A stretch of 64,000 bases of DNA from the human T2T-CHM13v2.0 reference genome, Homo sapiens. Position 1 is the stretch's first letter; every line of letters starts with the position of its first letter. Position numbers and translations under genes: made by a program. The stretch lies in assembly GCF_009914755.1 (NCBI RefSeq), contig NC_060947.1. The stretch is one strand, 5' to 3'. Shown here one piece after another: positions 35,191 through 44,689 of the stretch. The notes under the pieces are model-generated. The model was not told the origin of the DNA. It worked only from the letters and a program-made list of their open reading frames with translations, and made no database searches.

Positions 35191-36369
35191 ACAATGAGGG
35201 TAGTGTCTAAATGAGTTTTCAAATGGACAACAGTAACAACATCAACTTGGTGTTTAACCACATTGCTCTGTCTGTCCCATGCAGGAAGCAGGGAAAGGAG
35301 GGGCTCAAGAGTAGAGGACGGATGTGGGGGTGAAAGAAGAGGATTCAAATGAGCCAGGTTGCTTTGTCTCGGGGAGGGGGGTGCACGGTGGGATCCTCTC
35401 CTGAGAATGACTGCTGAAACAATAGGTAGTTGTGGCAGGTGGCGGAGATCCAAGCTGGTTTGATACCAGCCACATTTCCACACTGCCAAATATCATGGCA
35501 AGAGAAGACTTGACAGGGAACCGAAGAGAAGCCAGGACCATCCCTACCTGGCGGCATCAAAGAGAGAGGACTGTTATGACCTCCTGCGGGTCCTGACAGG
35601 GAAAGGTCCTCTTTTGGGGGCAACTGTGGGGACGGTGCAATGCCAACGTGAGCCACCATTTGAAATGAGAAACAGCGGTGTGGCAGAAAGAAATGAGTCT
35701 GGTGCAGACCAGTGGTTGGTTTCCTAGGGTTAGAGGTCTAGGTCTACCTTCTTTTAGAAGAGGGGCAGTGGTGAGTCCTTGATGGGAGCCCCCTGCCCCG
35801 GAGTTCACTTAAGAGCAGGTGTACCTTCCTCCCCTGCGTGGCTCCACGAAGCTGGGAAAGAAACGCACAGGACGACCACCCTAGAACCCCGGGCCTGTCT
35901 GGACTGAAATCGCCTCTCCCCTCCCACACTGCAGTGCTGACACCCCCTCTCCCATTAACATCCAGGAAGGAGGGTGAGCAGACTAGGGAGGGGGAGAGGG
36001 CAAACACCCAGCAGTCCTTATAGGGGGGCGGTTGGGGCGGGGGTGCAGACACACCAAGGGACGGTTTGGTATCCATCCGCTGCTCCCTCCAGCGCGGCTC
36101 TTCGCGACCTCGCGATCCTGTCCTCCGCCCGGCCCCGCAGCCGCCCGCCGGTGCCATATATTATAGCAGCGCCAGAAATGTGGTGGTCGTCGCCACGTTA
36201 GGGTCCGCGGGGTCCTCCTGAGGCAGCCTGGTGCCAACCCGCAGGCCCCGGCTGGGGCTCGTCCTGGCCCCGCCCACCTCTGGGTCGGAACTATGGTGGT
36301 TCTGTGAGGGGGGGCGTCCTGCACTTTCGCGCCGTATCCCTCCGCCCCCCTTCCCGACACCCTCGCGGA

Positions 36370-36550
36370 GAGCGGTTCTTGCCGCATCCTGCGCAGCCCC
36401 TGCCCAGTTTGGTGCAGAGGCGTGGGGGGCGGGACTCGTCTTTGCCATTCGGATCGCTGGGAAAGCGGTGGGAATCCAACTGAAGAGCAGCCAGAGGAGA
36501 GCTGAAGAGAGGAGGGGGAGGCCGATGACCTGGGCTCTGGGCCTCTGAAG
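36370..36550 (+). other. GPRASP1: Predicted first 5'UTR exon (start approximate), ending at a GC-type donor
   Basis: ctgaag|GCAAGT matches the donor consensus except C at +2. Confidence 0.6.
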
Positions 36551-37129
36551 GCAAGTAGGGGTGCGTGAGGTGGGGGGCCGTGGTGTGGGGGTGGTCCGCC
36601 AGGGTGGACCGGCTGGCAACCTGCCCCCCGGACCCTGACAGCCTGGCAACGAGGAGACGATCCGTTCGGAGCCGGGCGCTAGAGAGAGGTGCGCAGTGCC
36701 CGAGATCCCTGGCTATGGGGAGGCGGTGACTGGTGCGGGCCAGGCCGGACCAAGGGCTGAGGGGCTGGCTCCAGAGGCACCGTCAGATCGTCTGGAGGAG
36801 AACCGCGCTGACCGCTTCCCAGCCAGCTTTGCAGGCGCCCGCGCGCAGCCCTCGACGGTTTCGGTACCGAGAGACGGCTGTGGGGGAGGCTCCTGCGGGA
36901 GAAATGGCCAAACGGGAGCCGTGTTGGGGGGCGCCCGGGAGGCAGTTGGGGGGCGCCTGGGGGGGCCCTCGTGGGCCAGCGTCCCAGCTCTGTGCCTAGC
37001 CCGTGGGAGGTGGGTCGCGTTCGCTGCTCCGGGCCCTGATTCCGGAAAGGGGCCTGTGGGGCCCCGTGTCCTGGGTGCTGTCCCTTCCCACAGACTCCAG
37101 GTTGATGTCAAAGTCTGTCTGCGCGGTAG

Positions 37130-37220
37130 GTCTGGCGTATTCTGACAGGACACAGTGAGCATCTGTAGAGGAGAGGCTTGAAATAAAGGAGGAGCACGAA
37201 TATTCCCTGGATTTCTGGAG
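37130..37220 (+). other. GPRASP1: Predicted 5'UTR exon
   Basis: cggtag|gtctgg ... ctggag|gtgtgt; alternative acceptors near 37093 and 37100. Confidence 0.6.
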
Positions 37221-37581
37221 GTGTGTGGGGATGTGGGGTGGGTGCCAAACACTGGAGAACCGAATCGGGGTGGGGGACTGCGACCAGAGCAGGTCAGGCA
37301 TCCAGGAGCACCTCTTAATCTTCCCCTCTCTAATGGTGTTCCAGGCGCTTCCCCCACCTTCCATCCCCATCTGCCTCCCCCACCGTCCTAAACTGGGGGC
37401 TTGAAAGGGTGAGCTTTGGAGGTAGGGGTGATGAGGGAGACATACTGACAAGTACCAATTCACGACCTGTTTTCTAGAATATGTGGCGCCCTTCCCCCAT
37501 TTTCTGCTGCGCAGAGCAAGGGGATGTGGCGCACCTAGTGGTGAATCCTCAGAATTGGAGAAGGGAGTAATGAGAAGAGTA

Positions 37582-37589
37582 TGACGTCA
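37582..37589. promoter_or_regulatory. Perfect palindromic CRE (TGACGTCA), intronic
   Basis: Exact motif with its CpG intact, just downstream of the CpG island. Confidence 0.45.
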
Positions 37590-37785
37590 AGAGAAGGAGT
37601 TGTTATCTCTAGAACCTTGAAGCAGGGCCTAAACAAAACGAGAATATTCCACCAGCAAAACCCCGAATGTTGAAAGACAGATATCAATAATATGGGGATT
37701 CTTATCCTTAGCGTTGGTCTCTCTACCAAGGGCTTTACTGCCACCCCTCATTTCCTGTCTTACTTTTTCATCTGTTTGTCCATAG

Positions 37786-37853
37786 GCCTGCTTTAAGGCT
37801 GGCCAGTTCTGCAAGAAAGGCAAGGAGGAGGAGACTGGCTCACACCTCTGGAG
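37786..37853 (+). other. GPRASP1: Predicted 5'UTR exon
   Basis: Polypyrimidine tract, cccatag|gcctgc ... ctggag|gttggt. Confidence 0.7.
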
Positions 37854-38175
37854 GTTGGTGAGAAGGGGGAGGGGGCAATTCAGGGGACAGTTGGAGAAAG
37901 AGAGCATGGCAGGTGGCTTTGAGACCAGTGGGTGCAGACCCACTTCTACTCTGCTGGATTTGCACAGTGCCAGCATCCTTTTTATTTCTTGCAGGGGACA
38001 TGAGATAGGTGTAGGTTGTGTTGTGACTCAGAAAGACCTGAGAGCAGGGACCAGGACACAGGAAACCATAGATACATTGAACCCTTGAATGGGAAGACAG
38101 ATATTTGTCACAGGAGCCAGAGTGCTTGCCTATCTACCATTCTCCATTCTCTCCTGTATGTTTACTTGTCTGTAG

Positions 38176-38253
38176 GACCCCCTTCTGTCAGCTGTGGGGC
38201 TTGACACTACTTGAACAAGAAAAGGAGGGGGAAACTGCACCACATAAGTGAAG
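38176..38253 (+). other. GPRASP1: Predicted 5'UTR exon
   Basis: ttgtctgtag|gacccc ... gtgaag|gttggt. Confidence 0.7.
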
Positions 38254-38534
38254 GTTGGTATGAGAGTGGGTATACTTTTGGGCGGGGTAGTGGAGACCAG
38301 CATGGGTCCGGGAGTGCTTAGGGTCCAATCTGGGGACTTCTTGGCCCCTCCCATTGCCGACACACTTTCCCACCATTGTTGGACCTGTTTAATAGGAGGC
38401 AGCCGGTCCAGAGAGACTTTCTCAAAGCCCAGCTGTCCCACCTAGCATTCAACATCAGTCTCACTGCATATGTCTCTGCATGGGATGACATAATTGGAAG
38501 AGACTCAAAGCCCCATTTCATTCTCTCTCCCTAG

Positions 38535-38868
38535 ATCCACCTCCAGTGGCTGCTCTGCTGGTGGTGGGGTTGCTGCTGACAACCACCCTCAACGGGTCTG
38601 CACCCATCCAGGAAATCTCTGTCTTCCTCAAGCTTGGTTGTGCCTGTTCTACACTCTATCTGTATTATTGAATTACTGACTGAGACTGTGTTTGGGAAGG
38701 AGGCTGAGTGACTACTGGACTGGATATTGACTCTAACTCTTGTTTCCAAGCTTATATCCTCAATCACCTAAAGATCAGAGTGTGAAGAAACAAACCTGTG
38801 ACAGATCTGTGGTTGAGGTTTAGACTGGGGGAGGAGTATAGTACTGGACTTTCTTTGTAACTTGTACC
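38535..38868 (+). other. GPRASP1: 5'UTR portion of the terminal coding exon
   Basis: ttctctctccctag|atccac acceptor; no ATG until ACC-ATG at 38869. Confidence 0.75.
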
Positions 38869-41800
38869 ATGACTGGGGCAGAGATTGAGTCTGGTGCCCA
38901 GGTCAAGCCTGAAAAGAAGCCTGGGGAAGAGGTTGTAGGTGGGGCTGAGATAGAGAATGATGTCCCTCTGGTGGTCAGACCCAAGGTTAGGACCCAGGCC
39001 CAGATAATGCCTGGGGCAAGGCCCAAGAATAAGTCCAAGGTTATGCCTGGAGCAAGCACCAAAGTTGAGACAAGTGCAGTGGGTGGGGCACGCCCTAAGA
39101 GTAAGGCCAAGGCAATACCTGTTTCACGATTTAAGGAAGAAGCCCAGATGTGGGCTCAGCCCAGGTTTGGTGCTGAAAGATTGTCTAAGACAGAGAGAAA
39201 CTCCCAGACCAATATCATAGCCTCTCCACTTGTCAGTACTGATTCTGTCTTGGTTGCTAAAACAAAGTACCTGTCTGAGGATAGAGAACTGGTTAATACA
39301 GACACTGAGAGCTTTCCTAGAAGGAAGGCCCATTACCAAGCAGGATTCCAGCCTTCTTTTAGGTCAAAGGAGGAGACCAATATGGGGTCCTGGTGCTGTC
39401 CTAGGCCTACATCCAAACAAGAAGCCTCTCCTAATTCTGATTTCAAATGGGTAGACAAATCTGTGAGTTCCTTGTTCTGGAGTGGAGATGAGGTCACTGC
39501 AAAATTTCATCCTGGGAATAGGGTAAAAGACAGTAACAGATCCATGCACATGGCCAATCAAGAGGCTAATACCATGTCTAGGTCCCAAACTAACCAGGAG
39601 CTCTATATTGCATCTAGTTCTGGTTCTGAGGATGAGTCTGTTAAGACACCCTGGTTCTGGGCCAGAGATAAAACCAATACCTGGTCTGGGCCCAGGGAAG
39701 ATCCCAATAGCAGGTCCAGGTTTAGGTCTAAGAAAGAAGTCTATGTTGAATCAAGTTCTGGATCTGAGCATGAAGACCATTTGGAGTCCTGGTTTGGGGC
39801 TGGAAAGGAGGCCAAATTCAGGTCCAAAATGAGAGCTGGGAAGGAGGCCAATAACAGGGCCAGGCACAGGGCCAAGCGAGAAGCTTGCATTGATTTCATG
39901 CCTGGGTCTATAGATGTAATTAAAAAAGAGTCCTGTTTCTGGCCTGAAGAAAATGCTAATACCTTTTCAAGGCCCATGATCAAGAAAGAGGCCAGGGCCA
40001 GAGCAATGACAAAGGAAGAGGCCAAAACCAAGGCCCGAGCCAGGGCCAAGCAAGAAGCCAGGTCAGAGGAGGAAGCCCTCATTGGGACCTGGTTCTGGGC
40101 TACAGACGAGTCCAGCATGGCAGATGAAGCCAGCATAGAGTCCAGTCTACAAGTGGAGGATGAGTCCATAATTGGGAGTTGGTTCTGGACTGAAGAAGAG
40201 GCCAGTATGGGGACTGGGGCTAGCAGTAAATCCAGACCAAGGACTGATGGGGAGCGTATTGGTGATTCCTTATTTGGGGCTAGGGAAAAGACCAGTATGA
40301 AAACTGGGGCTGAGGCCACCTCTGAATCTATACTAGCAGCTGATGATGAACAGGTCATTATTGGTTCCTGGTTCTGGGCTGGTGAAGAGGTCAACCAAGA
40401 GGCTGAGGAAGAGACCATTTTTGGGTCGTGGTTCTGGGTCATTGATGCGGCCAGTGTGGAATCTGGTGTTGGGGTCAGCTGTGAGTCCAGGACAAGGTCT
40501 GAGGAAGAAGAGGTCATTGGTCCCTGGTTTTGGTCTGGAGAACAAGTTGATATAGAGGCTGGAATCGGAGAAGAGGCCAGGCCAGGAGCTGAAGAAGAGA
40601 CAATATTCGGGTCCTGGTTTTGGGCTGAAAACCAGACCTATATGGATTGTAGGGCTGAAACTAGCTGTGACACCATGCAAGGGGCTGAGGAGGAGGAGCC
40701 CATTATTGGGTCCTGGTTTTGGACCAGAGTAGAAGCTTGTGTGGAGGGTGATGTCAACAGCAAGTCTAGCCTGGAGGACAAGGAAGAGGCCATGATACCA
40801 TGTTTTGGAGCCAAAGAAGAGGTCAGTATGAAGCATGGGACTGGTGTCAGATGCAGATTTATGGCAGGGGCTGAGGAGACCAATAATAAGTCTTGCTTCT
40901 GGGCAGAAAAAGAACCCTGTATGTATCCTGCCGGTGGAGGAAGTTGGAAGTCTAGGCCAGAGGAGGAAGAGGACATTGTCAATTCGTGGTTCTGGTCCAG
41001 AAAATACACAAAGCCAGAGGCCATTATAGGGTCCTGGTTATGGGCTACAGAAGAGAGTAATATAGATGGGACTGGAGAAAAGGCCAAGTTACTGACTGAA
41101 GAGGAGACCATAATCAATTCCTGGTTCTGGAAAGAAGATGAAGCCATTTCAGAGGCTACTGACAGAGAAGAGTCCAGGCCAGAAGCTGAGGAGGGGGACA
41201 TTATTGGTTCTTGGTTCTGGGCTGGAGAAGAGGACAGACTAGAGCCAGCTGCTGAGACTAGAGAAGAAGACAGGCTAGCAGCTGAGAAAGAAGGTATTGT
41301 TGGGTCCTGGTTTGGGGCCAGAGAAGAGACCATTAGAAGAGAGGCTGGGTCTTGCAGCAAATCCAGTCCTAAAGCTGAAGAGGAAGAAGTCATTATTGGG
41401 TCCTGGTTCTGGGAAGAAGAGGCCAGTCCGGAGGCAGTGGCAGGAGTCGGCTTTGAGTCAAAGCCTGGGACTGAGGAGGAAGAAATCACTGTTGGGTCCT
41501 GGTTCTGGCCTGAAGAAGAAGCCAGTATACAGGCTGGATCTCAGGCAGTAGAGGAAATGGAGTCAGAGACTGAAGAGGAAACCATTTTTGGGTCCTGGTT
41601 CTGGGATGGAAAAGAAGTCAGTGAAGAAGCAGGACCATGCTGTGTATCCAAGCCAGAGGATGATGAAGAGATGATTGTTGAGTCCTGGTTCTGGTCTAGA
41701 GACAAAGCCATTAAGGAAACTGGAACTGTGGCCACCTGTGAGTCCAAGCCAGAAAATGAGGAAGGGGCCATTGTTGGGTCTTGGTTTGAGGCTGAAGATG

Positions 41801-43056
41801 AGGTAGATAACAGGACTGACAATGGAAGCAACTGTGGGTCCAGGACATTAGCTGATGAAGATGAGGCCATAGTGGGGTCCTGGTTCTGGGCAGGAGATGA
41901 GGCCCATTTTGAATCAAATCCTAGCCCCGTGTTCAGGGCCATTTGCAGGTCCACGTGTTCAGTTGAACAGGAGCCTGATCCTTCACGCAGGCCTCAGAGT
42001 TGGGAGGAGGTCACTGTTCAGTTCAAGCCTGGTCCATGGGGTAGGGTCGGCTTCCCATCTATAAGCCCCTTTAGATTTCCGAAAGAGGCAGCATCTTTAT
42101 TCTGTGAAATGTTTGGGGGCAAACCCAGGAACATGGTACTTAGCCCAGAAGGGGAAGATCAGGAATCTTTGCTTCAGCCTGATCAGCCTAGTCCTGAGTT
42201 CCCATTTCAGTATGATCCTTCCTACAGGTCAGTCCAGGAAATTCGAGAGCATCTTAGGGCCAAGGAGAGTACAGAGCCTGAGAGTTCATCCTGTAACTGC
42301 ATACAATGTGAGCTGAAAATTGGTTCTGAAGAGTTTGAAGAACTCCTTTTATTAATGGAAAAAATTCGGGATCCTTTTATTCATGAAATATCTAAAATCG
42401 CAATGGGTATGAGAAGTGCTTCTCAATTTACCCGAGATTTCATTCGAGATTCAGGTGTTGTCTCACTTATTGAAACCTTGCTTAATTATCCGTCCTCCCG
42501 AGTTAGAACAAGTTTTTTGGAAAATATGATTCGCATGGCCCCACCTTATCCGAATCTAAACATAATTCAGACATACATATGTAAAGTGTGTGAGGAAACC
42601 CTTGCTTATAGCGTGGATTCCCCGGAACAGCTGTCTGGAATAAGGATGATTAGACATCTCACTACTACTACTGACTATCACACACTGGTTGCCAATTATA
42701 TGTCTGGGTTTCTCTCCTTATTAGCTACAGGCAATGCCAAAACAAGGTTTCATGTTTTGAAAATGCTACTGAATTTGTCTGAAAATCTTTTCATGACAAA
42801 AGAACTACTCAGTGCTGAAGCAGTGTCAGAATTTATAGGCCTCTTTAACAGGGAAGAGACAAATGACAATATTCAAATTGTTCTTGCAATATTTGAGAAT
42901 ATTGGCAACAATATCAAAAAAGAAACAGTGTTCTCTGATGATGATTTCAATATTGAGCCGCTTATTTCTGCATTCCACAAAGTTGAGAAATTTGCTAAGG
43001 AACTGCAAGGCAAAACAGACAATCAAAATGACCCTGAAGGGGACCAAGAAAATTAG
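38869..43056 (+). CDS. GPRASP1: G protein-coupled receptor-associated sorting protein 1 (GASP-1), 1395 aa, intronless CDS
   Basis: Uninterrupted 1395-aa ORF starting [17 protein letters not shown], with more than 20 EEExxxGSWFW GASP motifs and a C-terminal armadillo-like domain ([13 protein letters not shown]...[19 protein letters not shown]) shared with ARMCX/GPRASP proteins. Confidence 0.98.
39640..41905 (+). repeat. Degenerate coding tandem array of GASP motifs
   Basis: Recurrent (g)ggtcctggttctgg DNA core encoding GSWFW in an acidic context. Confidence 0.9.
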
Positions 43057-43382
43057 TAATGGTTAATTGCTGGCCTCAGATTGTCCTTATGTTCCTGAGT
43101 TATGATCCTTGAGTAATGCTTTGATTTTAATAGTTGGTTCTGTGTTGCAACATATATCTTTAGTGCTGACACTAACTTTGTCCAACTCTGTCTGTAAGCT
43201 GGAGCATTTTTCTGATGCCAGCTGAATATTAGAGCTGAAAACACATTTGTTGATATTTGTCTTGTCCACATTGTGATGTTCAGTATTTGAGCTTATAGTG
43301 AACTGAGCAATCATAAATAAGCCACCCTTCTGATTGTCGTTCTACTGTATATATATATATATTTGAGTGTTGTTTGTGTTTC

Positions 43383-43388
43383 AATAAA
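43383..43388 (+). terminator. GPRASP1: Polyadenylation signal of GPRASP1
   Basis: AATAAA about 330 nt after the stop, preceded by (TA)n and GT-rich sequence. Confidence 0.8.
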
Positions 43389-44689
43389 GTCCTATGTTAA
43401 AGTTGGCAGAAATCACCCTTCTTCTTGAAATTAAAATACAGACCCAATGATAACACATGAACACACATAGAGATAATTAATATATGAATAATATGTTCCT
43501 TTCAAAAGTTTTTTTCTCAGCTTTAAACGCAAAAATTACCAGGGGCTGCTATGTAGGGCATACTTCAGAGAAAAAGTAGCTACTTCGGTTGGACTCTGAA
43601 GTTTGGGAAAGATATTGGTGGTGTAAAAAAAAAAAAAAGCATGGAGTTAGGAAAAATTTTCCTATGGGAGTGAGGTATCCTGTTTGCCTAGAGTGAGTGA
43701 GAGGAATATATTGAGCAACATAGAGGATGACATAAGTTTTAAAGAGCTGAGGATTTGCATTTTACAGCTCAAAGTACAACTGCTGCTTCCATACTACCTA
43801 AAGGGCAAAAGAATAAGACAGGAAAGCATAGGGATTTGATTGAGTCAGGAAGACAATTTAATCATGATGGTACCATGGTAAGTGTTAAGGCAACATCATA
43901 CAGCCATTAAACATGATGATGTATAGGGTTTTAGGAAAAGCCCTGACATTTTTGATATTTCATATAATAGAGAACACTGGTGTCATACATGGGAAGTATG
44001 ATCCCATTTGAAAAATAAATGTGAATAAATTGACCAAACTCATGTGAAGTGTATATTATTTAATAATAGAAAATTCTACAATGATATAAAATGTATCAAA
44101 GGAATGAAGAGGTAAGAGAGACTACAATTTCAGAAGAACTGGCTTGTCAATTAAAAATGAAAAATTAAAAATTATTTAAAGGACCAAACTGTAAAATTAC
44201 CAAAGTTCCTGAGTTCATCCCACATGTATTTTTACATTTAAAAAGGTTGGAACATATATGTTCAGACAGTAGCAAGAGACAGGGATAAAGTCGGTTTGGG
44301 GAGAGAGTCCAGGATAACAGGAAATATGCAAAGTTTTATTTTCTCAGGAAAAAAAAATAGATACAGTGACCCTTTTACATTTGGTTTGCCTCAGGATGCA
44401 AAGGCTTTTTCCCACCTGATCTTATTTCTCATTACTTCCTATTTCTGGTTCATTATAAATGATATAAATTAAATTCCAATATGATGTTAGTTTGCTAAGG
44501 TTTACGAAAGCAGGGCAAAGTGGCAGTTTTGCCTCCCTTCACAAATCAAAAATTTTAACAGGGATCATCCTGGTGGTGCAAATTGGAGTTTGAATGTTTG
44601 TTTTGCTTACCAGCATTTTTCAAGACAGATCTTGCGTGTGTTTTAGTATGTCGCTCTAGTCGTATACAAAATATCACAAATCACTTCAT

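What the first reader, a model, noticed from the sequence alone, without database searches (positions are those of the whole stretch)
38681..38868. Apparent fossil ARMCX mitochondrial anchor exon segment in the GPRASP1 5'UTR
Seen: the non-coding leader of the coding exon translates from 38684 as D-C-V-W-E-G-G-*-V-T-T-G-L-D-I-D-S-N-S-C-F-Q-A-Y-I-L-N. After a 1-nt shift at ~38770 it reads K-D-Q-S-V-K-K...S-V-V-E-V-*..., which is in frame with the GPRASP1 ATG. Recalled knowledge: ARMCX1/2/3/4/6 begin with a signal anchor such as [28 protein letters not shown] (ARMCX3), followed by GRDQ/RAQSV-like residues, whereas GPRASP1 lacks it. The gapless match is 9/27 identities, with W->stop (TGG->TGA) and a CpG-type R->W change. 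Inference: GASP-1 arose from a membrane-anchored ARMCX ancestor by inactivating the original ATG and transmembrane segment and adopting a downstream ATG, converting a mitochondrial outer-membrane protein into a cytosolic GPCR sorter. I do not know whether this remnant has been described.
Basis: partly seen in the sequence, partly recalled or inferred. Interest (0 to 1): 0.8.

Follow-up and report, generated by a model that had tools for sequence, protein, structure and literature searches.

The report
Dead membrane-anchor coding relic in GPRASP1 leader
The untranslated stretch just before the GPRASP1 start codon is the decayed remains of the membrane-anchor coding sequence that its ARMCX relatives still use, showing that this protein family lost its anchor by losing its original start codon.

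Summary
Window 38681-38868 is former coding sequence. It aligns colinearly with the first ~59 codons of ARMCX4, inside one blastn match running from the shared splice acceptor (38534|38535) to beyond the present GPRASP1 ATG (E=2e-22).

A blind nhmmer search of all 64 kb, using a model of the first 99 nt of six anchored paralogs, puts its only significant hit here, in register (E=0.0026). Shuffle tests agree.

- **Old start codon:** 38681-38683 now reads TGA.
- **Trp9:** now TGA (38705-38707).
- **Frame:** a 1-nt deletion near 38771 breaks it.
- **New ATG:** 38869 aligns with ATA (Ile60) of ARMCX4.

GPRASP2, GPRASP3 and ARMCX5 carry the same relic, the same two start-codon-killing substitutions and the same new ATG. 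On the Arm_2 tree they form one clade sister to anchored ARMCX4. This points to one ancestral loss, although gene conversion could mimic it.

Release from the mitochondrial membrane is inferred, not shown. No paper I could search describes the relic. It is a new example of a known kind of event, of moderate interest.

The parts
38535..38680 (+). Original 5'UTR part of the single coding exon. It begins at the splice acceptor shared with ARMCX4, ARMCX5, GPRASP2 and GPRASP3.
   Evidence: Acceptor and leader align in 5 of 5 genes compared over this stretch. Identity to ARMCX4 is 59.2%. It lies inside the blastn matches to ARMCX4 (E=2e-22) and ARMCX3 (E=1.6e-12).
38681..38683 (+). Position of the ancestral start codon, now TGA.
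   Evidence: This column is ATG in 6 of 6 anchored paralogs, TGA in GPRASP1 and GPRASP2, and AGA in GPRASP3 and ARMCX5.
38681..38779 (+). Relic of codons 1-33 of the ARMC10/ARMCX membrane anchor. The hydrophobic core, codons 8-26, is at 38702-38758.
   Evidence: nhmmer E=0.0026, in register. 50/99 gapless identity to ARMCX3 and ARMCX4, reached by 0 of 1000 shuffles. Protein profile is the best site in the window. Codon table. Mean hydropathy 0.28 with 2 Asp and a stop, against 0.79-1.44 in the six live anchors.
38705..38707 (+). Nonsense change at anchor codon 9 (TGG to TGA).
   Evidence: The derived base at 38707 is private to GPRASP1/2. GPRASP3 and ARMCX5 have other triplets here.
38770..38773 (+). 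1-nt deletion (frameshift) relative to all anchored paralogs. Exact placement within an A run is ambiguous.
   Evidence: Alignments. Gap list (GPRASP1 and GPRASP2: 1 nt; GPRASP3: 7 nt at the same column).
38780..38868 (+). Relic of the post-anchor codons (ARMCX4 codons 34-59), with a 12-nt insertion relative to ARMCX4. Two stops lie in the present reading frame (38821-38823, 38839-38841).
   Evidence: 59.7% identity to ARMCX4.
38869..38871 (+). Present start codon of GPRASP1. It aligns with ATA (Ile60) of ARMCX4.
   Evidence: This column is ATG in GPRASP1, GPRASP2, GPRASP3 and ARMCX5 and ATA in ARMCX4. BLASTP aligns ARMCX4 63-349 with GPRASP1 4-288, E=9e-9.
38869..43056 (+). GPRASP1 coding sequence (1395 aa), with an Arm_2 domain at residues 1153-1369.
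   Evidence: Pfam PF04826, E=3.3e-56.

Best explanation
Window 38681-38868 is former coding sequence. It held the first ~59 codons of an ARMCX4-like ancestor, including the N-terminal membrane anchor that ARMC10 and ARMCX1, 2, 3, 4 and 6 still encode.

In the common ancestor of GPRASP1, GPRASP2, GPRASP3 and ARMCX5 the start codon was destroyed: its second and third bases changed. Translation then began at an ATG about 180 nt downstream, which is codon 60 (ATA) in ARMCX4. The first ~59 codons became 5'UTR and decayed. In GPRASP1/2 the decay added a TGA at the old Trp9, Asp/Ser/Asn in place of the Gly/Ala core, and a 1-nt deletion.

- **Shown here:** homology, colinearity, the lesions, and their distribution among the paralogs.
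- **Inferred:** that the loss was a single event rather than spread by gene conversion, and that it released the protein from the mitochondrial outer membrane into the cytosol, where the GASP-motif proteins act on receptor tails.
For: **Homology and colinearity**
- A blind nhmmer search of the window gives its only significant hit here, in register, E=0.0026.
- ARMCX4 (-200..+300 around its ATG) gives one colinear blastn match to 38488-38956, 59.8% identity over 478 columns, E=2e-22. ARMCX3 gives 38488-38830, E=1.6e-12.
- The GPRASP1 leader finds the homologous leaders of ARMCX5 (E=4e-31), GPRASP3 (1.5e-22), ARMCX4 (8e-18) and ARMCX3 (1.6e-13), which is 4 of 8 targets.
- Shuffle tests.
- BLASTP aligns ARMCX4 63-349 with GPRASP1 4-288, E=9e-9, so the protein continues colinearly after the relic.

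**Distribution among paralogs**
- The old ATG column is ATG in 6 of 6 anchored genes and xGA in 4 of 4 anchorless genes. The new ATG is present in 4 of 4 anchorless genes and is ATA in ARMCX4.
- 4 derived bases are shared by all three anchorless lineages, including both ATG-killing changes. 9 more are shared by GPRASP1 and GPRASP3. 14 are private to GPRASP1/2 and 16 to GPRASP3.
- At least one relic keeps the anchored-majority base in 67 of 99 positions, against a permuted null of 32.7 +/- 4.4 (0 of 2000 permutations reach 67).
- Arm_2 tree: (ARMCX4,(GPRASP3,ARMCX5,(GPRASP1,GPRASP2))), with 100/99 support at both nodes.

**Function of the anchor (published)**
- Armc10 has a transmembrane segment at aa 7-29 with a flanking basic region (PMC5424104, passages).
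- Deleting Armcx3 residues 1-12 abolishes mitochondrial targeting (PMC4776218, passages).
Against: - Each statistical test restricted to the ~100-nt anchor segment is only moderate: nhmmer 13.4 bits; 3 of 2000 shuffles reach the protein score. ARMCX2 matched best off register, and ARMC10 was weak (43 of 1000 shuffles reach it).
- On their own, the GPRASP3 and ARMCX5 relics are not significant to the anchor model (E=0.42 and 3). They rest on the colinear leader alignments.
- The 2-of-3 majority of the three relic lineages matches the anchored majority at 42 of 70 resolvable columns (60%). That is barely above single relics (54/98, 50/92, 24/42). Convergence toward the anchor is therefore weak, as expected if much of the decay was shared or homogenised.
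- GPRASP1 and GPRASP2 are 91-97% identical from 37669 to ~39018 and 62-69% beyond. Winter and Ponting report concerted evolution of their 5'UTRs. Shared lesions could therefore have spread by gene conversion rather than descent.
- No orthologues from other mammals could be fetched.
- The direction of ATA/ATG at codon 60 is unresolved.
- The cellular location of ARMCX4 and the relocalisation step were not tested.
Confidence: 0.9

Rival explanations
1. Chance resemblance: a 27-33 residue, roughly 30% identical, stop-containing match in a non-coding leader is noise.
For: The protein-level identity is low (6-9 of 33 per paralog). 3 of 2000 shuffles reach the profile score. ARMCX2 matched best off register.
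Against: The site is the top hit of a blind DNA-profile search of 128 kb of sequence (both strands), in exact register. It also lies inside a single colinear alignment to ARMCX4 (E=2e-22) and to ARMCX3 (E=1.6e-12) that starts at the shared splice acceptor and runs into the present coding sequence.
Confidence: 0.01
2. The relic is real, but the anchor was lost more than once. The shared start-codon lesion, the shared new ATG and the other shared changes were then spread among GPRASP1/2/3 and ARMCX5 by gene conversion of their 5' regions.
For: - A homogenised block between GPRASP1 and GPRASP2 covers introns, the leader and the first ~150 nt of coding sequence (96% leader identity).
- Concerted evolution of GASP1/GASP2 5'UTRs has been published (PMC1274310, passages).
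Against: - GPRASP3 and ARMCX5 leaders are only 63% and 71% identical to GPRASP1's. Each carries many private changes and private indels, so there is no sign of recent conversion with them.
- The four genes form one clade on the unconverted Arm_2 domain, so a single loss is the most parsimonious reading.
Confidence: 0.1
3. The stretch arrived as a conversion patch copied from an anchored ARMCX gene into a leader that was already non-coding. It would then not be a vertical remnant of GPRASP1's own former coding sequence.
For: Conversion among 5' regions of Xq22 genes is documented.
Against: - Identity to ARMCX4 is uniform across the pre-ATG leader (59.2%), ex-anchor (55.6%), ex-linker (59.7%) and present coding start (57.6%). 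There is no patch boundary.
- The protein continues colinearly with ARMCX4 after the relic.
Confidence: 0.03
4. The leader is kept for a present function, such as an RNA structure, a small upstream reading frame or translational control. Its likeness to the anchor would then be secondary.
For: The 334-nt leader contains no ATG (5.7 expected; P=0.0026 by mononucleotide shuffles), and the whole 731-nt 5'UTR has one. This suggests selection on the leader against upstream starts.
Against: - The RNA fold is no better than shuffles (z=-0.66; 24 of 100 shuffles fold as well).
- There is no Rfam match in 36300-39300 apart from a sub-threshold mir-593 hit outside the leader.
- Divergence from ARMCX4 is the same as in neighbouring segments.
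- GPRASP3 and ARMCX5 tolerate 1 and 3 upstream ATGs and large deletions in the relic.
- This rival is compatible with the relic origin and does not replace it.
Confidence: 0.1

Closest known systems
5' end of the ARMCX4 coding exon (closest anchored paralog; G000 C23:99932608-99933100, locus L029)
   Same: - The splice acceptor is the same and the leader is homologous.
- The alignment is colinear through the anchor codons and on into the present GPRASP1 coding sequence.
- ARMCX4 is sister to the anchorless clade on the Arm_2 tree.
- It carries a GASP-like motif (GASP-4 is placed in subfamily 1 in PMC3575409).
   Different: ARMCX4 keeps the ATG, an open frame and a hydrophobic anchor. It has ATA where GPRASP1 has its start codon. 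GPRASP1 has TGA at the old ATG, a nonsense codon, a frameshift and polar or charged replacements.
N-terminal transmembrane / mitochondrial targeting signal of ARMC10 and ARMCX1, 2, 3 and 6
   Same: The relic is homologous in position and sequence to their first 33 codons.
   Different: Those signals are translated and functional: Armc10 has a TM segment at aa 7-29, and deleting Armcx3 residues 1-12 abolishes targeting. The GPRASP1 copy cannot be translated, because there is no ATG in the leader and there are stops in all three forward frames.
BGW element and concerted evolution of BEX/WEX/GASP 5'UTRs (Winter and Ponting 2005, PMC1274310)
   Same: Both concern conserved sequence in the 5'UTRs of Xq22 GASP genes. 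The GPRASP1/GPRASP2 leader homogenisation seen here matches their report.
   Different: The BGW element is a ~57-base regulatory motif in and around the first non-coding exon. The relic lies in the last (coding) exon and is ex-coding sequence. That paper contains neither 'transmembrane' nor 'start codon' (0 occurrences each).
N-terminal truncation by start-codon loss with use of a downstream ATG (general evolutionary mechanism; recalled, no call)
   Same: The same logic applies: a targeting signal is removed without touching the rest of the protein, and former codons are left in the 5'UTR.
   Different: Here the event can be read directly from four paralogous relics beside a living anchored sister gene.

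Membership tests
Relic (non-functional copy) of the ARMC10/ARMCX N-terminal anchor coding sequence | Significant sequence similarity to the first ~33 codons of anchored family members, in the same register | tested here: met
   nhmmer E=0.0026, top hit of the window. 50/99 gapless identity at 38681, reached by 0 of 1000 shuffles, for ARMCX3 and ARMCX4. The protein profile's best site in the window is here, reached by 3 of 2000 shuffles.
Relic (non-functional copy) of the ARMC10/ARMCX N-terminal anchor coding sequence | Positional homology: same place in the coding exon, between a homologous leader and homologous downstream coding sequence | tested here: met
   There is a single colinear match to ARMCX4 covering 38488-38956. 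The acceptor is shared. ARMCX4 63-349 aligns with GPRASP1 4-288.
Functional ARMCX-type signal anchor | Start codon and open reading frame through the anchor into the protein | tested here: not met
   TGA stands at the old ATG, TGA at codon 9, and there is a 1-nt deletion. The leader has no ATG, and two stops lie in the frame of the present ATG.
Functional ARMCX-type signal anchor | Uncharged hydrophobic stretch of about 19 residues followed by basic residues | tested here: not met
   The relic reading has 2 Asp and a stop. Its mean hydropathy is 0.28, against 0.79-1.44 in 6 of 6 live anchors.
GASP/ARMCX protein family (GPRASP1 as a whole) | C-terminal Arm_2 (PF04826) domain | tested here: met
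   E=3.3e-56 over residues 1153-1369. Paralogs were found genome-wide.
BGW element (Winter and Ponting 2005) | A ~57-base motif in or near the first 5'UTR exon, shared with BEX/WEX genes | not tested
By position (last exon against first exon) the relic is a different feature.

The most novel reading that the evidence does not exclude
One start-codon loss created the whole anchorless GASP subfamily (GPRASP1, GPRASP2, GPRASP3, ARMCX5). The ancestor was ARMCX4-like: anchored to the mitochondrial outer membrane and already carrying GASP motifs. GPCR sorting by GASP-1 would then descend from a mitochondria-tethered protein that was set free. ARMCX4 would be the surviving intermediate, combining the anchor with the receptor-binding motif, and might link receptor tails or other GASP-motif partners to mitochondria.
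Probability: 0.5. Interest if true: 0.6.

Novelty: new member of a known kind. Interest (0 to 1): 0.45.

Why it matters
It was already known that the GASP/ARMCX family descends from ARMC10, and that some members carry an N-terminal membrane anchor while others do not.

The relic shows how the anchorless members arose. The original start codon was lost and a downstream ATG was adopted. This probably happened once, before GPRASP1/2/3 and ARMCX5 separated. ARMCX4 remains the anchored sister gene.

This turns a vague statement that two subfamilies exist into a testable history. It also suggests direct experiments:
- put the anchor back on GASP-1;
- locate ARMCX4 in the cell;
- ask whether location alone separates the mitochondrial-trafficking and receptor-sorting functions.

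It also warns annotators that this part of four human 5'UTRs is decayed coding sequence, not a regulatory element.

Tried and rejected
- **Whole-genome DNA search with the 334-nt leader** found only GPRASP1 itself and GPRASP2 (96% identity), 2 of 2 candidates scored. The more distant leaders had to be found through the protein domain and aligned locally.
- **The anchor DNA model on GPRASP3 and ARMCX5 leaders** gave only E=0.42 and E=3. These relics rest on the colinear leader alignments.
- **blastn of ARMCX1, ARMCX2 and ARMCX6 5' regions** against the window gave no match at the relic. The GPRASP1 leader found 4 of 8 paralog 5' regions at E<=0.01, with none for ARMCX1, ARMCX2, ARMCX6 or ARMC10.
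- **RNA structure of the leader:** z=-0.66.
- **Rfam on 36300-39300:** only a sub-threshold mir-593 hit at 36364-36453 (21.2 bits against a gathering score of 100, E=0.29).
- **A chr14 family pseudogene**, hoped to be an older snapshot of a leader, turned out to be a fairly young processed copy of GPRASP3. It is 90% identical over 359 nt of leader plus coding start, and its relic is already decayed.
- **Papers not seen:** Lopez-Domenech et al. 2012 is not held. I did not see Simonin et al. 2004, Abu-Helo and Simonin 2010, or any later GPRASP/ARMCX review outside the library.
- **Orthologues from other mammals** could not be fetched with these tools.

Full report
**1. The observation**

The window is human Xq22, and the finding lies in the last exon of GPRASP1 (38535-44038; coding sequence from 38869, per the hub's table).
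- The second reading, in the frame of the ATG at 38869, is also as stated. It is closed by stops at 38821-38823 and 38839-38841, so no N-terminal extension of GPRASP1 is possible.
- The window's own genome could be searched. The GPRASP1 Arm_2 domain (PF04826, E=3.3e-56) and the ARMCX3 protein located all paralogs.
- ARMCX1, 2, 3, 4, 6 and ARMC10 exon 1 all begin with the same anchor.
- In ARMCX4 the anchor match and the Arm_2 match both report the same 2498-residue open frame, so I take them to lie in one open frame.

**2. More than chance**

- *Blind DNA search.* I built a DNA profile from the first 99 nt of the six anchored genes (a gapless codon alignment) and searched the whole 64-kb window on both strands with all filters off.
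  - The top hit is 38687-38729, 13.4 bits, E=0.0026. It is in exact register, so model position 1 falls on 38681.
  - The next hit has E=7.1.
- *Gapless DNA matching against the 334-nt leader.* The best offset is 38681 for 5 of 6 paralogs. Each was tested against 1000 dinucleotide shuffles of the leader.

| Paralog | Best match | Shuffles reaching it |
|---|---|---|
| ARMCX3 | 50/99 | 0 |
| ARMCX4 | 50/99 | 0 |
| ARMCX1 | 47/99 | 0 |
| ARMCX6 | 46/99 | 2 |
| ARMC10 | 41/99 | 43 |
| ARMCX2 | 42/99, off register at 38685 | 31 |

- *Protein profile.* A 33-residue profile of the six anchors has its best score in all six frames of the window at 38681 (17.3, next best 10.7). 3 of 2000 shuffled leaders reach that score. 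Identities per paralog are 6-9 of 33.
- Taken alone, these anchor-only tests are moderate. The decisive evidence is colinearity.

**3. Anatomy**

- ARMCX4 from -200 to +300 around its ATG gives a single blastn match to window 38488-38956 (478 columns, 59.8% identity, E=2e-22). ARMCX3 gives 38488-38830 (E=1.6e-12).
- The alignment starts at the same splice acceptor (38534|38535) and runs through a homologous 146-nt leader.
- It places the ARMCX4 ATG on 38681-38683 and passes gaplessly through the anchor codons.
- It needs a 1-nt deletion near 38771 and a 12-nt insertion near 38853-38864.
- It then continues into the present coding sequence. The GPRASP1 ATG (38869) lies on ATA, codon 60 of ARMCX4.
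- BLASTP agrees: ARMCX4 63-349 aligns with GPRASP1 4-288, E=9e-9.
- Identity to ARMCX4 is uniform across segments, so there is no patch boundary and no sign of special constraint:
  - leader, 59.2%
  - ex-anchor, 55.6%
  - ex-linker, 59.7%
  - present coding start, 57.6%

**4. Lesions and their distribution**

- *In GPRASP1 and GPRASP2.*
  - The old ATG now reads TGA.
  - Codon 5 is TGG where four of the six anchored genes have CGG.
  - Codon 9 is TGA where four have TGG.
  - The Gly-Ala-Gly-Ala core (codons 17-20) reads Asp-Ser-Asn-Ser.
  - Mean hydropathy of the former core is 0.28 with two Asp, against 0.79-1.44 in the six live anchors.
- *GPRASP3 and ARMCX5 carry the same relic in the same place.* GPRASP1 leader blastn against them gives E=1.5e-22 and E=4e-31 (alignment).
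  - GPRASP3 has a 2-nt insertion and a 7-nt deletion.
  - ARMCX5 has lost 57 nt of the anchor.
- *Start codons.*
  - The old start column is ATG in 6 of 6 anchored genes and xGA in 4 of 4 anchorless genes.
  - The new ATG is present in 4 of 4 anchorless genes.
- *Shared against private changes.*
  - Four derived bases are shared by all three anchorless lineages, including both bases that destroy the ATG.
  - Nine more are shared by GPRASP1 and GPRASP3.
  - 14 are private to GPRASP1/2, including the base that makes the TGA at codon 9. 16 are private to GPRASP3.
- *Tree.* On a tree of the Arm_2 domain, the four anchorless genes form one clade (100/99) that is sister to ARMCX4 (100/99). ARMCX1, 2, 3 and 6 group with the ARMC10 retrocopy used as outgroup (10 rows, none dropped; root drawn at the midpoint).
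- *Simplest history.* There was one start-codon loss in the ancestor of the four genes, followed by a period of shared decay and then independent decay.

**5. Caveats**

- GPRASP1 and GPRASP2 are 91-97% identical from 37669 to about 39018 and only 62-69% beyond (leader 96%).
  - This fits the concerted evolution of their 5'UTRs reported by Winter and Ponting (PMC1274310, passages).
  - The two genes therefore count as one witness. Conversion could in principle have spread lesions among the other genes too, although GPRASP3 and ARMCX5 show many private changes.
- The 2-of-3 majority of the three relic lineages matches the anchored majority at 42 of 70 resolvable columns. That is little better than single relics (54/98, 50/92, 24/42). 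By contrast, at least one relic keeps the anchored base at 67 of 99 positions, against a null of 32.7 +/- 4.4.
- Whether ATG or ATA is ancestral at codon 60 is unresolved.

**6. How it works (inference)**

- The anchor of this family is a transmembrane segment with a flanking basic region that predicts targeting to the mitochondrial outer membrane (Armc10 aa 7-29; PMC5424104, passages).
- Deletion of Armcx3 residues 1-12 abolishes mitochondrial targeting (PMC4776218, passages citing Lopez-Domenech 2012).
- Loss of the start codon would therefore have produced an unanchored protein in one step.
- GASP motifs, which mediate receptor-tail binding, are reported in GASP-1 to GASP-5, including GASP-4 = ARMCX4 (PMC3575409, passages). 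A loose pattern search found such a motif in ARMCX4, GPRASP1/2/3 and ARMCX5, and none in ARMCX1, 2, 3, 6 or the ARMC10 retrocopy.
- ARMCX4 thus combines the anchor with the GASP motif. This suggests the motif came first and the anchor was lost afterwards.
- The leader has no ATG in 334 nt (5.7 expected, P=0.0026), and the whole 731-nt 5'UTR has one. This fits selection against upstream starts once the downstream ATG was in use. GPRASP3 and ARMCX5 do tolerate 1 and 3 upstream ATGs.
- There is no sign of an RNA structure (z=-0.66) or of an Rfam family.

**7. Known or new**

- Already in print: the family's origin from ARMC10 by retroposition, the two subfamilies, and the anchor of the ARMCX/ARMC10 group.
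- I ran seven full-text searches.
- I read passages of nine papers. None mentions a remnant of the anchor in a GPRASP 5'UTR. Winter and Ponting contains neither 'transmembrane' nor 'start codon' (0 occurrences each).
- Simonin 2004, Abu-Helo and Simonin 2010 and Lopez-Domenech 2012 (not held) could not be read, so prior description there cannot be excluded.
- The kind of event, N-terminal truncation by start-codon loss leaving ex-codons in the UTR, is known (recalled). This is a clean new instance.

**8. Verdict**

  - the event is shared by four genes;
  - the primary lesion is the start-codon loss;
  - the nearest anchored relative is ARMCX4.
- Confidence that the stretch is a true relic is about 0.9. 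Confidence in a single ancestral loss followed by relocalisation is about 0.5-0.6.
- Interest is moderate. The result is tidy and testable, but it fits what the family's known phylogeny already implied.

Noticed in passing
window 37669-39018 against L031 (GPRASP2): GPRASP1 and GPRASP2 are 87-97% identical through introns, leader and the first ~150 nt of coding sequence, then drop to 62-69%. This looks like a homogenised (gene-conversion) block with a sharp 3' edge near 39019.
   Followed up: partly
window 36438-38868 (GPRASP1 5'UTR exons): There is only one ATG (at 36525) in the 731-nt spliced 5'UTR and none in the 334-nt leader of the coding exon. 5.7 are expected in the leader, P=0.0026 by mononucleotide shuffles. 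GPRASP2 also has none in the same stretch.
   Followed up: partly
L034 5886-7833 (G000 C14:75193885-75195832): This is a processed pseudogene of GPRASP3 on chromosome 14. Its coding part matches GPRASP3 at 62-84% amino-acid identity, with stops. It carries the GPRASP3 coding-exon leader at 90% identity, including the already decayed anchor relic.
   Followed up: partly
L010 (G000 C3:97205260-97206114, minus strand): This is a processed copy of ARMC10 on chromosome 3 with an uninterrupted 325-residue open frame. Its first 51 residues, including the anchor, are identical to those of chr7 exon 1 as printed. I did not examine whether it is expressed.
   Followed up: no
G000 C23:100042000-100042680 (L023): An X-linked ARMCX-type pseudogene with 5 stops lies between ARMCX1 and ARMCX6. 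It probably corresponds to the pseudogene listed between those genes by Winter and Ponting.
   Followed up: no
G000 C23:99932754-99940049 (ARMCX4): The open frame around ARMCX4 in this assembly is 2498 residues. I recall the usual protein being shorter, about 2290 residues (from memory, no call). A difference in repeat number is possible but was not checked.
   Followed up: no
window 38489-38671, + strand, another frame: A stop-free reading across the start of the exon contains a hydrophobic run. The homologous ARMCX4 stretch is non-coding leader upstream of its ATG, so I take this as chance.
   Followed up: partly
window 36364-36453: A weak mir-593 match overlaps the start of GPRASP1 exon 1 (21.2 bits against a gathering score of 100, E=0.29). 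It is most likely chance.
   Followed up: no
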